A DNA stretch of 64,000 nucleotides from assembly GCF_054482595.1 (NCBI RefSeq), contig NZ_CM137008.1; one strand, given 5' to 3'. Below, in pieces: positions 3,001 through 6,000 of this stretch. Each line of letters starts with the position of its first letter. The stretch's first letter is position 1. A program made the position numbers.

Positions 3001-6000
3001 CCCAATCATTCCCTTCTTTGTTGCCTCGCTGATTCTCGATGGTTCCGCATCCATGATTCACAGTCTGGTTACTATTGATATGACCACCATCTTGTCGCTG
3101 ATGTATCTGGCGTTTGTGGCGACAATTGTTGGTTATGGGATCTGGGGGACGTTACTGGGACGCTATGAAACCTGGCGGGTTGCACCGTTATCGTTACTGG
3201 TGCCCGTAGTCGGACTGGCAAGTGCGGCACTATTGTTGGATGAACGCTTAACGGGTCTGCAATTTTTAGGTGCGGTGCTCATTATGACCGGGCTGTATAT
3301 CAATGTATTTGGCTTGCGGTGGCGTAAAGCGGTAAAGGTTAGAGGCTAAACCATACGCACAGAATGTGATGTCAGCACTCTGTGCGTCTGCTTTTATCGC
3401 GGGAAAAAGTACTTTACCTGGAACTCGAAAATATTGCTGTAAAGTAACGAATAATCCAGCGGAATAGAGTTACTGTCCACAGCCTGGGTCTGAATTTTAA
3501 GTATGGGATCCCGTGGGCTGATCCGTAAAATACTGGCGATTTCTGGGGTAGGAAAAGTAGGGGAGAAAGTTTCAAAGGTGCCAATGATTTTGATCCCGCA
3601 TTCATTCTCAATATATGAAAATTTGGATTTTTGCATATGTGACACGGTTAAATCAGGAAAACGTGCTACTGACATCCACGTTTCTTCTAATTGTGCTGCA
3701 TTATCCTCAATGAATCGCAGTCTCTTTATGTAATAAACCTGCTCACCAGTCACTAAATTCAGCTCAGTCGCAATAGTGGGTGAAGCATCCTGCACTTCAA
3801 ATTTCATAATCTGACTCCCTGCCTCTTTGCCGCTTTTATGCGCAATTTCACTGAAACTGTTCATGTGATCAATGTGTGCAACAAAATTCTTTTTTTGAAT
3901 GTATGTTCCTGAACCATGCTTTCTGTGAATAATTCCTTCGCCTTCCAGCAAGGATAATGCCTTACGCAGGGTATTACGCGAAACATTATAACGAACAGCG
4001 AGTTCCGCTTCTGACGGCAACAAATCACCAACATGCCATGAATTGCCATTGATTTCGGATTTAAGTAAGCGGGCAATCTTTTGAAAAATCACTTTTGCAC
4101 CTTTTAAGAGCCATTGAAAACAAGGAGTTGAGTCCTGATTGTTTTATCGTATGGCCGAGTCGTTTAATAATCACCCTGATGTTGAACAACTTTATCACTG
4201 TATTACTGTGATCAATGTACCAGGACGTATAGCTACTGCGGGATATGATATTTAAACAATGTAATCTGTTATATACCAGTAAGGGAAAATATGAAAAAAA
4301 TATTGTTAGTTTGCGCTGCGGGCATGTCAACCAGTATGCTGGTTAAACGTATGATTGATCATGCTAACGCTATTTCACTTGAAGTTAATATTTCCGCATT
4401 GGCGATTGCAGAGGCTAAAGGGAAAATTAAAAATAACGAAGTTGACGTTGTTTTACTTGGCCCGCAAGTTCGCTTTCAGAAACCAGAGATTGAAGCCGTT
4501 GCACAGGGGAAAATGCCTGTAGCCGTTATCGAGATGAAAGACTACGGCACCATGAACGGACAGGCAGTTCTTGAATTTGCGATGAAACTACTGCAAGAGT
4601 AAGAATCTAATATTATTAAACTATTACCTGAACTAACTTTTCACACATCATAAAATGGATATGGCATACATGCTTTATTGGGATGTATAAATATCCAAAA
4701 CAACAGGTATAAAAAAATGGGATTAATGGCCTCATTCGAACGTGGAATGGAACGTTTTCTTGTTCCAGTTGCTATCAAGTTAAACTCACAAAAACATGTT
4801 GCAGCGGTGAGAGATGGATTCGTTTTTACGTTTCCAATTATCATGGCAAGTTCATTAATTATATTAATTAACTTTGCCATATTATCGCCAGACGGTTTTA
4901 TTGCCGGATTACTGCATCTGAATAGCATTTTCCCCAACCTTGAAAAAGCACAAGCTATTTTTACTCCGGTAATGAATGGTTCTGTAAATATCATGTCAAT
5001 TATGATTGCTTTCCTGGTCGCCAGGAATATGGCGATTAGCTATGAGCAAGATGATCTTTTATGCGGATTAACGGCAATAGGAGCATTTTTTATTGTTTAT
5101 ACGCCATATCAGATGATAGATGGGCAAGCATTCCTGACGACCAAATATCTCGGCGCGCAGGGGTTGTTTGTTGCTGTTATCGTTGCATTGATCACCAGTG
5201 AAATATTTTGTCGCTTAGCTCGAAACCCAAAAATCACCATAACGATGCCGGCAGCTGTACCGCCTGCGGTAGCGCGTTCATTTAAAGTTTTATTGCCAAT
5301 ATTTTTTGTCATGGTGTTCTTTTCCGCACTTAATTATTGCCTGGCACTGATATCCCCGGCAGGACTAAACGATCTTATTTACACATTAATCCAGACGCCG
5401 CTCAAACATATGGGAACGAATATCTTTGCGGTAATTATCCTGGGGGCTGTGGGTAATTTCCTGTGGGTGCTGGGGATCCACGGACCTAATACCACATCGG
5501 CAATTCGAGAAACCGTTTTTTCTGAGGCTAATCTGGAGAATCTCTCCTGGGCCGCTCAACATGGCACTACCTGGGGCGCGCCATATCCGATTACCTGGAC
5601 TTCTATTAATGATGCATTCGCCAACTGCGGCGGCTCAGGTATGACGTTGGGGTTATTGTTGGCTATTTTTATCGCTTCTAAGCGTGCGGAATACCGTGAT
5701 CTGGCAAAAATGTCATTTATCCCCGGTATTTTCAATATCAATGAACCGATAATGTTTGGCCTTCCTATTGTACTTAACCCCATCATGATGGTGCCGTTTA
5801 TTATGGTTCCCATTGTTAACTGTGCCATTGGTTACTTCTTTGTTTCGATGGAAATTATTCCACCGGTTGCTTATGCCGTGCCCTGGACTACGCCCGGACC
5901 TTTAATTGCTTTCCTCGGAACCGGGGGGAACTGGCTGGCTTTACTGGTTGGTTTTTTATGTTTAGGTGTGGCGACAATGATCTATTTACCTTTTGTTATT

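What the first reader, a model, noticed from the sequence alone, without database searches (positions are those of the whole stretch)
4603..4716. Long structured spacer between PTS IIB and IIC genes
A 114-nt gap inside what should be one operon contains an imperfect ~15-bp inverted repeat (TGGATATGGCATACAT ... GATGTATAAATATCCA, about 4654-4694). Together with the perfect hairpin between IIA and the porin gene (6384-6407), this suggests that intra-operon RNA structures, acting as attenuators or processing/stability elements, set the stoichiometry of PTS, porin and hydrolase.
Basis: seen in the sequence. Interest (0 to 1): 0.3.

Follow-up and report, generated by a model that had tools for sequence, protein, structure and literature searches.

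The report
Structured RNA spacer in bgc operon
A 114-base untranslated gap between two transporter genes of the already known E. coli bgc beta-glucoside operon folds into a stable RNA hairpin, and most relatives keep a hairpin of some sequence in the same gap; it is most likely an ordinary within-operon element that tunes how much of each protein is made.

Summary
The window carries the E. coli bgc beta-glucoside island (GntR regulator, PTS IIB, IIC, IIA, sugar porin, 6-phospho-beta-glucosidase) between eamA and marB. About 2,500 of 5,426 complete E. coli genomes have it.

The IIB-IIC gap is exactly 114 nt (4603-4716, 26% GC). It holds a stem-loop at 4656-4697, 2-3 nt from the coordinates given. 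The hairpin has dG -15.2 kcal/mol, z -3.6, and no shuffle out of 200 folds as well.

In 18 distinct orthologous spacers the gap is always long (81-229 nt). It is more structured than shuffles in 16 (mean z about -2.5), against -0.1 for the neighbouring promoter region. The sense strand is more structured than the antisense (15 of 18, p = 0.004). The hairpin sequences are not homologous between clades.

In Escherichia the hairpin is nested in a helix that pairs UACCUG (4625-4630) with the IIC Shine-Dalgarno CAGGUA (4704-4709).

The IIA-porin hairpin (6382-6409) is the better-supported structure: 7 of 11 pairs covary.

Neither hairpin has a U-tract, an Rfam match, or complementarity to ChiX, Spot 42 or SgrS.

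The likeliest role is an intercistronic stability and translation-tuning element. This is inferred and untested. It is a new member of a known kind, of low to moderate interest.

The parts
4291..4602 (+). PTS EIIB gene of the bgc operon (lactose/cellobiose family), the upstream cistron
   Evidence: NCBIfam TIGR00853, E 1e-24. RefSeq annotates it as 'PTS sugar transporter subunit IIB'.
4603..4716 (+). 114-nt untranslated IIB-IIC intercistronic spacer, 26% GC
   Evidence: Single copy per genome and 95-100% identical in about 2,500 E. coli genomes. Orthologs keep an 81-229 nt spacer.
4618..4655 (+). Sequence-conserved 5' segment of the spacer. It includes the anti-SD-like UACCUG and a CA/AU-rich stretch that is predicted to be unpaired.
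   Evidence: 92% identical between E. coli and E. albertii, against 80-84% for the flanking coding sequences and 57% for the hairpin. No polymorphism was seen in E. coli alleles.
4625..4630 (+). 5' strand (UACCUG) of the predicted long-range helix
   Evidence: Present in the MFE and centroid structures of the spacer. P(unpaired) is about 0 with +/-40 nt of context.
4656..4697 (+). AU-rich stem-loop, the inverted repeat of the finding: 7 bp, a 3x2 internal loop, 6 bp, then 2 apical pairs
   Evidence: dG -15.2 kcal/mol, z -3.6, 0 of 200 shuffles. Stems are invariant in intact E. coli alleles, and variants fall in loops. E. albertii has a differently sequenced hairpin at the same place.
4704..4709 (+). 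IIC Shine-Dalgarno region (CAGGUA), the 3' strand of the long-range helix
   Evidence: P(unpaired) is 0.08, against 0.39 +/- 0.18 when the upstream spacer is shuffled (14 of 300 shuffles as low). The result is the same in E. albertii (0.06; 13 of 300).
4717..6039 (+). PTS EIIC gene (membrane permease), the downstream cistron. Its first codons (4717-4728) are predicted to pair with 4614-4624.
   Evidence: NCBIfam TIGR00410, E 1e-99. RefSeq start. Extended pairing CUAU:AUGG and UAUUAA:UUAAUG.
6382..6409 (+). GC-rich stem-loop between IIA and the porin gene (UUUCCUCCAGU / GCUGGAGGAAA)
   Evidence: dG -17.8, z -3.8. In 15 orthologs, 88% of cells are paired, 7 of 11 pairs change on both sides, and 0 of 500 shuffles reach this. 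It accompanies the porin gene even where the upstream gene differs.
6434..8107 (+). Sugar porin gene (LamB family) downstream of the second hairpin
   Evidence: NCBIfam NF006860, E 4e-60. RefSeq annotates it as 'carbohydrate porin'.

Best explanation
The gap is a transcribed, untranslated intercistronic spacer of the bgc operon mRNA. It acts at the RNA level to uncouple the output of the soluble IIB cistron from that of the membrane IIC cistron.

In E. coli it folds into a two-level structure. A stable local stem-loop (4656-4697) sits inside a long-range helix that pairs the 5' part of the spacer (UACCUG, 4625-4630) with the IIC Shine-Dalgarno sequence (CAGGUA, 4704-4709).

The inferred mechanism has two parts:
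- The stem-loop is a sequence-independent barrier or end-protecting structure for segmental mRNA decay, after endonucleolytic cleavage in the flanking AU-rich single-stranded RNA. The segments upstream and downstream of it would then have different lifetimes.
- The outer helix and the weak SD keep IIC translation initiation low.

The IIA-porin hairpin (6382-6409) would do the same job at the border between the PTS genes and the porin gene.

Shown: the structures, their statistical excess, their persistence in relatives, and their bias to the sense strand. Inferred: any effect on decay, processing or translation.
For: - Context: one known operon.
- Stability beyond shuffles: spacer z -2.4, hairpin z -3.6.
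- Spacer length: every enterobacterial ortholog examined keeps a long IIB-IIC spacer of 81-229 nt. In the window, IIC-IIA is 27 nt and porin-hydrolase is 24 nt.
- Structure in orthologs: 16 of 18 distinct spacers are more structured than dinucleotide shuffles (mean z about -2.5). The adjacent non-coding regulator-IIB region of 15 of the same loci averages z -0.13.
- Sequence independence: hairpin sequences are unrelated between clades, and the E. coli and E. albertii hairpins are only 57% identical yet both fold. This fits a structural requirement that does not depend on sequence.
- Strand bias: the sense strand is more structured than the antisense in 15 of 18 spacers (Wilcoxon p 0.004). This points to RNA rather than a DNA palindrome.
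- Polymorphism: in intact E. coli alleles, all 8 variable sites avoid the 38 paired positions ((76/114)^8 = 0.04). The most divergent allele changes only loop positions.
- SD masking: the IIC SD is predicted to be paired in E. coli and E. albertii (P unpaired 0.08 and 0.06, against 0.39 in shuffles).
- Second hairpin: strong covariation including G.U pairs.
Against: - No transcript, half-life or translation data exist for this locus in anything I could read.
- Two lineages have spacers that are not unusually structured (Buttiauxella z about 0; L022 z +1.1).
- The hairpin's position within the spacer varies, from 7-53 nt after the stop codon and 19-49 nt before the ATG. No single geometry, 3' protector of IIB or 5' protector of IIC, is conserved.
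- SD masking is only marginally significant (about 4.5% of shuffles) and is not conserved in the Salmonella/Citrobacter/Enterobacter clade, where the CCUG motif is locked in a local hairpin.
- Covariation within that clade's hairpin is weak (2 pairs; 31 of 500 shuffles).
- No variants intermediate between the E. coli and E. albertii forms were found, so the E. coli hairpin itself has no true covariation test.
Confidence: 0.45

Rival explanations
1. Translation-only device. The function is to mask the IIC ribosome-binding site through the long-range helix 4614-4630 / 4704-4728. IIC would then be made only at a low rate, or only when ribosomes finishing IIB (stop codon at 4600-4602) loosen the 5' strand. 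This is translational coupling at a distance. The local hairpin merely brings the two strands together.
For: The SD and start codon are predicted to be paired in E. coli and E. albertii. Relative to the Salmonella clade (UUCCUG / CAGGUG, 4 bp), the Escherichia pair UACCUG / CAGGUA (6 bp) has changes on both strands that lengthen the helix. The 5' strand lies in the most conserved part of the spacer. The IIC SD is weak, AGGU only.
Against: Significance is marginal (14 of 300 and 13 of 300 shuffles, from two related sequences). The masking is not conserved in other clades. A terminating ribosome would reach only about position 4614, not the core helix; this is an inference from ribosome footprint size.
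Confidence: 0.15
2. No dedicated function. The gap is AT-rich junk in a horizontally acquired island. The hairpins are by-products, for example of palindrome-generating mutations, or of weak selection only against unstructured RNA that would load Rho.
For: Hairpin sequences turn over completely between clades. Two lineages lack excess structure. The hairpin region evolves faster than the coding sequence (57% against 80-84%). One natural strain tolerates an IS3 insertion in the hairpin loop.
Against: The spacer stays at 81 nt or longer in every lineage despite the bacterial bias toward deletion, while other junctions in the operon are 24-27 nt. Excess structure is absent from the neighbouring non-coding region. 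The structure is biased to the sense strand. E. coli polymorphisms avoid the stems.
Confidence: 0.2
3. Small-RNA target or decoy, like the chbB-chbC spacer of the paralogous chitobiose operon. An sRNA would pair with the conserved single-stranded segment 4618-4655 or with the SD region.
For: The position is the same (the IIB-IIC junction of a Lac-family PTS operon) as the ChiX-binding chbBC spacer. That spacer is also long (84 nt) and also holds a hairpin (PMC4474525). A 38-nt unpaired segment is more conserved than the coding sequence. An (ARN)3 run, AACAACAGG, lies next to the SD.
Against: ChiX, Spot 42 and SgrS show no above-chance complementarity (z about 0), whereas the positive control chbBC x ChiX gave z -2.9. 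There is no Rfam hit. The conserved segment is not conserved outside Escherichia.
Confidence: 0.07
4. DNA-level element: an operator for BgcR or CRP, an H-NS nucleation site in very AT-rich DNA, or an internal promoter for IIC.
For: The spacer is 26% GC. It contains an inverted repeat. A 12-nt motif in the hairpin arm (4684-4695) is 92% complementary to 4247-4258 in the promoter region.
Against: That motif match is at chance level; I estimate about 2 such matches would be expected in 650 nt of this composition. There is no promoter-like site in the spacer. The palindromes differ between clades although the regulator is conserved. The sense strand folds better than the antisense strand.
Confidence: 0.06
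5. Transcriptional attenuator, meaning a leaky intrinsic terminator between cistrons.
For: These are stable hairpins inside an operon. The paralogous chbBC hairpin is followed by U5.
Against: The spacer hairpin is followed by AAAACAACAGG, and the IIA-porin hairpin by AAAUUAUUACAC. The terminator scan calls neither. Orthologs have A-rich tails such as AAAUAAUAAUUAUA.
Confidence: 0.04
6. A translated small ORF, ATG 4655 to TAA 4690 (11 codons, MDMAYMLYWDV). Its translation would open the hairpin.
For: The ATG is conserved in E. albertii, where the ORF is 16 codons. Two Salmonella lineages have a short ORF that starts after their hairpin and stops inside the IIC SD.
Against: There is no SD upstream. 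The peptides are unrelated in sequence and length. The ORF is absent from most lineages.
Confidence: 0.03

Closest known systems
chbB-chbC intercistronic spacer of the E. coli/Salmonella chitobiose operon (ChiX sRNA trap)
   Same: It sits at the same junction (IIB-IIC) of a paralogous lactose/cellobiose-family PTS operon. It is long (84 nt in K-12), AU-rich, and contains a stem-loop just upstream of the IIC ribosome-binding site. It is known to act post-transcriptionally (PMC4474525).
   Different: The chbBC spacer works through a ChiX-complementary site, CCCGUCAAAGAG. The bgc spacer has no such site and no above-chance pairing to ChiX, Spot 42 or SgrS. The two spacers are not alignable.
Intercistronic stem-loops that set segmental mRNA stability. 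From my own knowledge: the REP hairpins between malE and malF in E. coli (Newbury et al. 1987) and the puf operon hairpins of Rhodobacter.
   Same: A stable hairpin lies between cistrons of one transcript whose products are needed in different amounts, soluble versus membrane component. The requirement is for structure rather than sequence.
   Different: This is not a REP/BIME element: it is single-copy per genome and AU-rich. No stability effect has been measured. The hairpin sits in the middle or 3' part of the spacer rather than directly after the stop codon.
Long-range masking of a downstream ribosome-binding site, giving translational coupling. From my own knowledge: the MS2 coat-replicase interaction and ribosomal-protein operons.
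   Same: The upstream part of the intercistronic region is predicted to pair with the SD and start codon of the next cistron.
   Different: This rests on prediction only, is marginally significant, and is confined to Escherichia.
Intrinsic (Rho-independent) terminator or attenuator
   Same: A stem-loop on the sense strand within a transcription unit.
   Different: There is no U-tract after either hairpin, and the consensus scan calls neither.

Membership tests
bgc beta-glucoside operon of E. coli (Neelakanta, Sankar and Schnetz 2009) | Divergent GntR-type regulator plus IIB, IIC, IIA, porin and phospho-beta-glucosidase genes, as an accessory island in E. coli | tested here: met
   NCBIfam assignments. 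RefSeq annotation between eamA and marB. Present in 2,604 of 5,426 genomes. Described in PMC3585215. CFT073 genes c1955-c1960.
Intercistronic mRNA stem-loop (stability or processing element) | Lies between cistrons of one transcription unit, on the sense strand | tested here: met
   Positions. Sense strand more structured than antisense in 15 of 18 orthologs.
Intercistronic mRNA stem-loop (stability or processing element) | Structure more stable than composition predicts, and maintained in relatives | tested here: met
   z -3.6 for the hairpin. 16 of 18 orthologous spacers have negative z, mean about -2.5, against -0.13 for the control region. Structure is lacking in 2 lineages.
Intercistronic mRNA stem-loop (stability or processing element) | Alters the half-life or abundance of the flanking mRNA segments | not testable with these tools
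   No transcriptome or decay data for a bgc-positive strain were found.
REP/BIME-type stabiliser | A dispersed, multi-copy palindromic repeat | tested here: not met
   Median of 1 place per genome.
Intrinsic terminator or attenuator | G+C-rich stem followed immediately by a U-tract | tested here: not met
   No call in the spacer or at 6382-6409. The tails are AAAACAAC and AAAUUAUUAC.
sRNA decoy or target of the chbBC-ChiX kind | Extended complementarity to the seed of a trans-acting sRNA | tested here: not met
   ChiX, Spot 42 and SgrS gave z between -1.4 and +0.5, against -2.9 for the positive control. Other sRNAs were not tested.
RBS-masking structure or translational coupling element | SD and/or start codon base-paired in the native fold | tested here: inconclusive
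   P(unpaired) is 0.08 in E. coli and 0.06 in E. albertii, with about 4.5% of shuffles as low. Not conserved in other clades.
Any curated RNA family (Rfam 15) | Match to a covariance model | tested here: not met
   No hit up to E = 10 in window 3300-10000. No gathering-score hit in the spacers of 16 orthologous loci.

The most novel reading that the evidence does not exclude
The IIB-IIC junction of enterobacterial Lac-family PTS operons may be a general post-transcriptional control point, with the chbBC-ChiX trap as just one instance.

In bgc, both hairpins would mask SD-like sequences. These are UCAGGAA in the Salmonella-clade spacer and GGAGGAA before the porin gene, each paired to an anti-SD-like arm. 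The real IIC SD is masked in Escherichia. The masked sequences would be exposed only when the upstream cistron is being translated, or when an unidentified sRNA or protein binds the conserved segment 4618-4655. That would create a relay setting the order and ratio of IIB, IIC, IIA and porin synthesis.
Probability: 0.12. Interest if true: 0.5.

Novelty: new member of a known kind. Interest (0 to 1): 0.25.

Why it matters
If the structures work as inferred, they explain how one promoter can deliver different amounts of a soluble PTS subunit, a membrane permease and an outer-membrane porin. This would apply to an accessory sugar-uptake island carried by about half of sequenced E. coli.

The comparative pattern is a small, clean example of selection on RNA structure rather than sequence: a long spacer always retained, hairpins replaced rather than conserved, and a bias to the sense strand. 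The covarying hairpin before the porin gene is a candidate for a new small RNA-structure family.

None of this overturns current understanding. It is a routine kind of operon fine-tuning.

Tried and rejected
- **Rfam.** No family matched in the window region or in the spacers of 16 orthologous loci.
- **Promoter and terminator scan.** Nothing was called in the spacer or at the second hairpin, and overall counts were at shuffle level.
- **Dispersed repeat or MITE.** Rejected, because the sequence is single-copy per genome.
- **sRNA pairing.** ChiX, Spot 42 and SgrS from K-12 gave no signal, while the chbBC x ChiX control worked. A genome-wide sRNA screen was not feasible with these tools.
- **Shared motif with the bgc promoter region.** The best match was 12 nt at 92%, which I judged to be chance, with about 2 expected.
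- **Small ORFs in the spacer.** They are not conserved. Antisense ORFs 4641-4994(-), 4061-4330(-) and 6421-6810(-) have no Pfam match.
- **Homology of the E. coli hairpin to the Salmonella-clade hairpin.** The alignment is ambiguous. By eye, TTACCTGAAC matches the 5' arm TTCCTGAA; MAFFT aligns it to the 3' arm.
- **Search for Escherichia variants intermediate between the two hairpins.** A metagenome scan returned 50 loci, all of either the E. coli or the E. albertii type. This gave no new covariation.
- **Literature.** The original bgc paper (PMC2675225) is not held. No paper was found that mentions the spacer or gives transcript maps of bgc.
- **RNA thermometer idea.** Not pursued. The hairpin does gain stability at low temperature (-18.7 kcal/mol at 28 C against -15.2 at 37 C). 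But a masking structure that tightens in the cold does not obviously fit the reported low-temperature phenotype.
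Full report
**Context**

Window positions 1-12,000 come from E. coli. Between eamA (2429-3349) and the mar locus lies an accessory island with these genes:
- a divergent GntR/HutC-type regulator, 3394-4092(-)
- a lactose/cellobiose-family PTS IIB, 4291-4602
- IIC, 4717-6039
- IIA, 6067-6378
- a LamB-family sugar porin, 6434-8107
- a GH1 6-phospho-beta-glucosidase, ending at 9571

The segment is 100% identical to many RefSeq E. coli chromosomes, and 2,604 of 5,426 complete genomes carry it.

This is the bgc beta-glucoside operon. [quoted passage not shown] It corresponds to c1955-c1960 of CFT073 (PMC2831201). The original 2009 paper could not be read. RefSeq annotates nothing in the IIB-IIC gap.

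**The observation**

The gap is exactly 114 nt (4603-4716) and 26% GC. The inverted repeat is real but lies at 4656-4671 / 4682-4697, two to three bases from the quoted coordinates.

As RNA it forms a 7-bp stem, a 3x2 internal loop, a 6-bp stem and two apical pairs. Its dG is -15.2 kcal/mol, against -6.4 +/- 2.4 for dinucleotide shuffles (z -3.6, 0 of 200). The whole spacer gives -17.6 kcal/mol, z -2.4. The antisense strand gives only z -1.1.

The hairpin between IIA and the porin gene is also real. It spans 6382-6392 / 6399-6409 with dG -17.8 and z -3.8.

**What else is in the E. coli fold**

Both the MFE and the centroid structures nest the hairpin inside a helix. That helix joins UACCUG (4625-4630) to CAGGUA (4704-4709), which is the only SD-like sequence before the IIC ATG.

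With 40 nt of flanking sequence on each side the helix persists and extends. CUAU (4621-4624) pairs with AUGG, which includes the start codon. UAUUAA (4614-4619) pairs with UUAAUG (4723-4728).

The SD has P(unpaired) 0.08. When the upstream spacer is shuffled the value is 0.39 +/- 0.18, and 14 of 300 shuffles are as low. E. albertii behaves the same way (0.06; 13 of 300). This is suggestive but not strong.

**Relatives**

I collected orthologous operons by scanning one genome per species and by looking up contigs that encode IIB homologues. They came from E. albertii, Salmonella enterica (several lineages), Citrobacter, Enterobacter, [Enterobacter] lignolyticus, Klebsiella, Cedecea, Ewingella, Buttiauxella, Yersinia and Rouxiella.

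All keep IIB directly upstream of IIC, and all keep a long AT-rich spacer of 81-229 nt. In the window, by contrast, IIC-IIA is 27 nt and porin-hydrolase is 24 nt.

Of 18 distinct spacers, 16 fold better than their shuffles, with mean z about -2.5. The adjacent regulator-IIB non-coding region of 15 of the same loci averages z -0.13. The sense strand is more unusual than the antisense in 15 of 18 spacers (Wilcoxon p 0.004, though some sequences are related). Buttiauxella and one metagenomic lineage (L022) show no excess structure.

The hairpins are not homologous across clades:
- Salmonella, Citrobacter and Enterobacter share a 13-bp stem, UUUGUUCCUGA / UCAGGAACGAAU. It is 91% paired but conserved mostly in sequence, with only two pairs changed on both sides.
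- Escherichia keeps a likely homologue of the 5' arm (UUACCUGAAC) but has a different hairpin further downstream. The alignment is ambiguous.

Between E. coli and E. albertii the coding sequences are 80-84% identical. The segment 4618-4655 is 92% identical. The hairpin region is only 57% identical, yet both versions fold, at -15.2 and -10.7 kcal/mol.

**Variation within E. coli**

The spacer is single-copy and 95-100% identical in about 2,500 genomes. Sampled alleles vary at 4603, 4612, 4664, 4672, 4698 (A/G/C), 4699 and 4703, and in the length of the A-run before the ATG. None of these sites is a paired position.

The most divergent intact allele (B19374) changes four positions, all unpaired. 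A likely decaying copy (HS-01, with IIB frameshifted) has A4668G, which turns an A-U pair into G.U.

Eight sites all missing 38 paired positions out of 114 has probability about 0.04.

A metagenome scan added only the same alleles and the E. albertii type, so it gave no further covariation.

**The second hairpin**

In 15 orthologs, 88% of cells are paired, against 28-53% in slid controls. Seven of 11 pairs change on both sides, and no shuffle out of 500 reaches the observed score. G.U pairs place the structure on the sense-strand RNA.

The hairpin begins 2-8 nt after the upstream stop codon in most loci. It precedes the porin gene even where IIC, not IIA, is upstream (Cedecea, Buttiauxella). 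In Yersinia and Rouxiella, where a ROK kinase gene is upstream, other hairpins occupy the same place. It has no U-tract and no Rfam match.

This hairpin is better supported as a conserved RNA structure than the spacer hairpin.

**Mechanism**

- Intrinsic termination is excluded by the lack of U-tracts.
- A dispersed repeat is excluded by copy number.
- A DNA-level operator, H-NS site or internal promoter is unlikely. There is no promoter-like site, the palindromes differ between clades while the regulator is conserved, and the structure is biased to the sense strand.
- An sRNA decoy is attractive by analogy, but it is not supported for the three sRNAs tested.

On the decoy analogy: the K-12 chbB-chbC spacer is 84 nt. 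It holds the ChiX site and a perfect 8-bp hairpin (PMC4474525). ChiX, Spot 42 and SgrS show no above-chance pairing with the bgc spacers, while the chbBC x ChiX control does.

What remains, and fits a requirement for 'some hairpin, any sequence', is a post-transcriptional element. It would be a barrier or end-protector for segmental mRNA decay. In Escherichia it would be combined with partial masking of a weak IIC ribosome-binding site. This is inference. No transcript data were available.

**Verdict**

This is an undescribed example of a well-known kind of feature inside a known operon. Interest is low to moderate (0.25). The most useful by-product is the covarying hairpin in front of the porin gene.

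Noticed in passing
window 6382-6409; orthologs in L002-L032: The hairpin before the porin gene has strong covariation (7 of 11 pairs, 0 of 500 shuffles) and stays with the porin gene whatever gene lies upstream. Its arms read like an anti-SD (UUCCUCC) paired to an SD (GGAGGAA). In distant genera it is followed by a conserved AAUAAUAAUUAUA stretch. It is not in Rfam.
   Followed up: partly
L041 (E. coli strain 'numer 3', NZ_CP141863.1), equivalent to window ~4677: An IS3-family element is inserted in the apical loop of the spacer hairpin, separating IIB from IIC by about 1.3 kb.
   Followed up: partly
window 4698-4699: The two bases just 3' of the hairpin are highly polymorphic in E. coli (AA, GA, GG, CA). 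In 50 metagenome contigs the three main forms occur at roughly equal frequency, while the rest of the spacer is nearly invariant. The GG form creates a second CAGG that could compete for the UACCUG strand.
   Followed up: partly
L035 2216-2299 (K-12 chbB-chbC spacer, minus strand of the record): The known ChiX-trap spacer is 84 nt. Besides the ChiX site, it contains a perfect 8-bp hairpin (ACCGCAAU/AUUGCGGU) followed by U5, just before the chbC SD. A long structured IIB-IIC spacer is therefore shared by two paralogous operons.
   Followed up: partly
L013 2313-2426 and L020 2316-2410 (Salmonella enterica lineages): A short ORF of 13 or 11 codons starts just after the spacer hairpin, with its SD-like AGGAA inside the hairpin's 3' arm. 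It stops at the UGA inside the IIC SD (GGUGAU), a geometry suited to termination-reinitiation. It is absent from the other lineages of the clade.
   Followed up: no
window 4207-4258: A likely CRP site, TGTGATCAATGTACCA (4207-4222), lies about 41 nt upstream of a predicted start near 4256, with a TATGAT -10 at 4243-4248. This would fit a class II CRP-dependent bgc promoter. It was read by eye only.
   Followed up: no
L005 4877-5000 (Cedecea davisae spacer): The arms of this spacer's hairpin contain TCGATAAATT and its near-perfect inverted copy. From memory, this matches the published high-affinity H-NS motif. It may be coincidental in AT-rich DNA.
   Followed up: no
L003 65-209 (-): An Rfam StyR-3 sRNA hit (150 bits) lies in the Salmonella diarizonae locus, several kb from the operon and unrelated to the finding.
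   Followed up: no
L039 (E. coli HS-01, NZ_CP172817.1): This copy has a frameshifted IIB, indels at the IIC start and a scrambled SD (CA to AC). It is either a decaying operon or a low-quality assembly.
   Followed up: no
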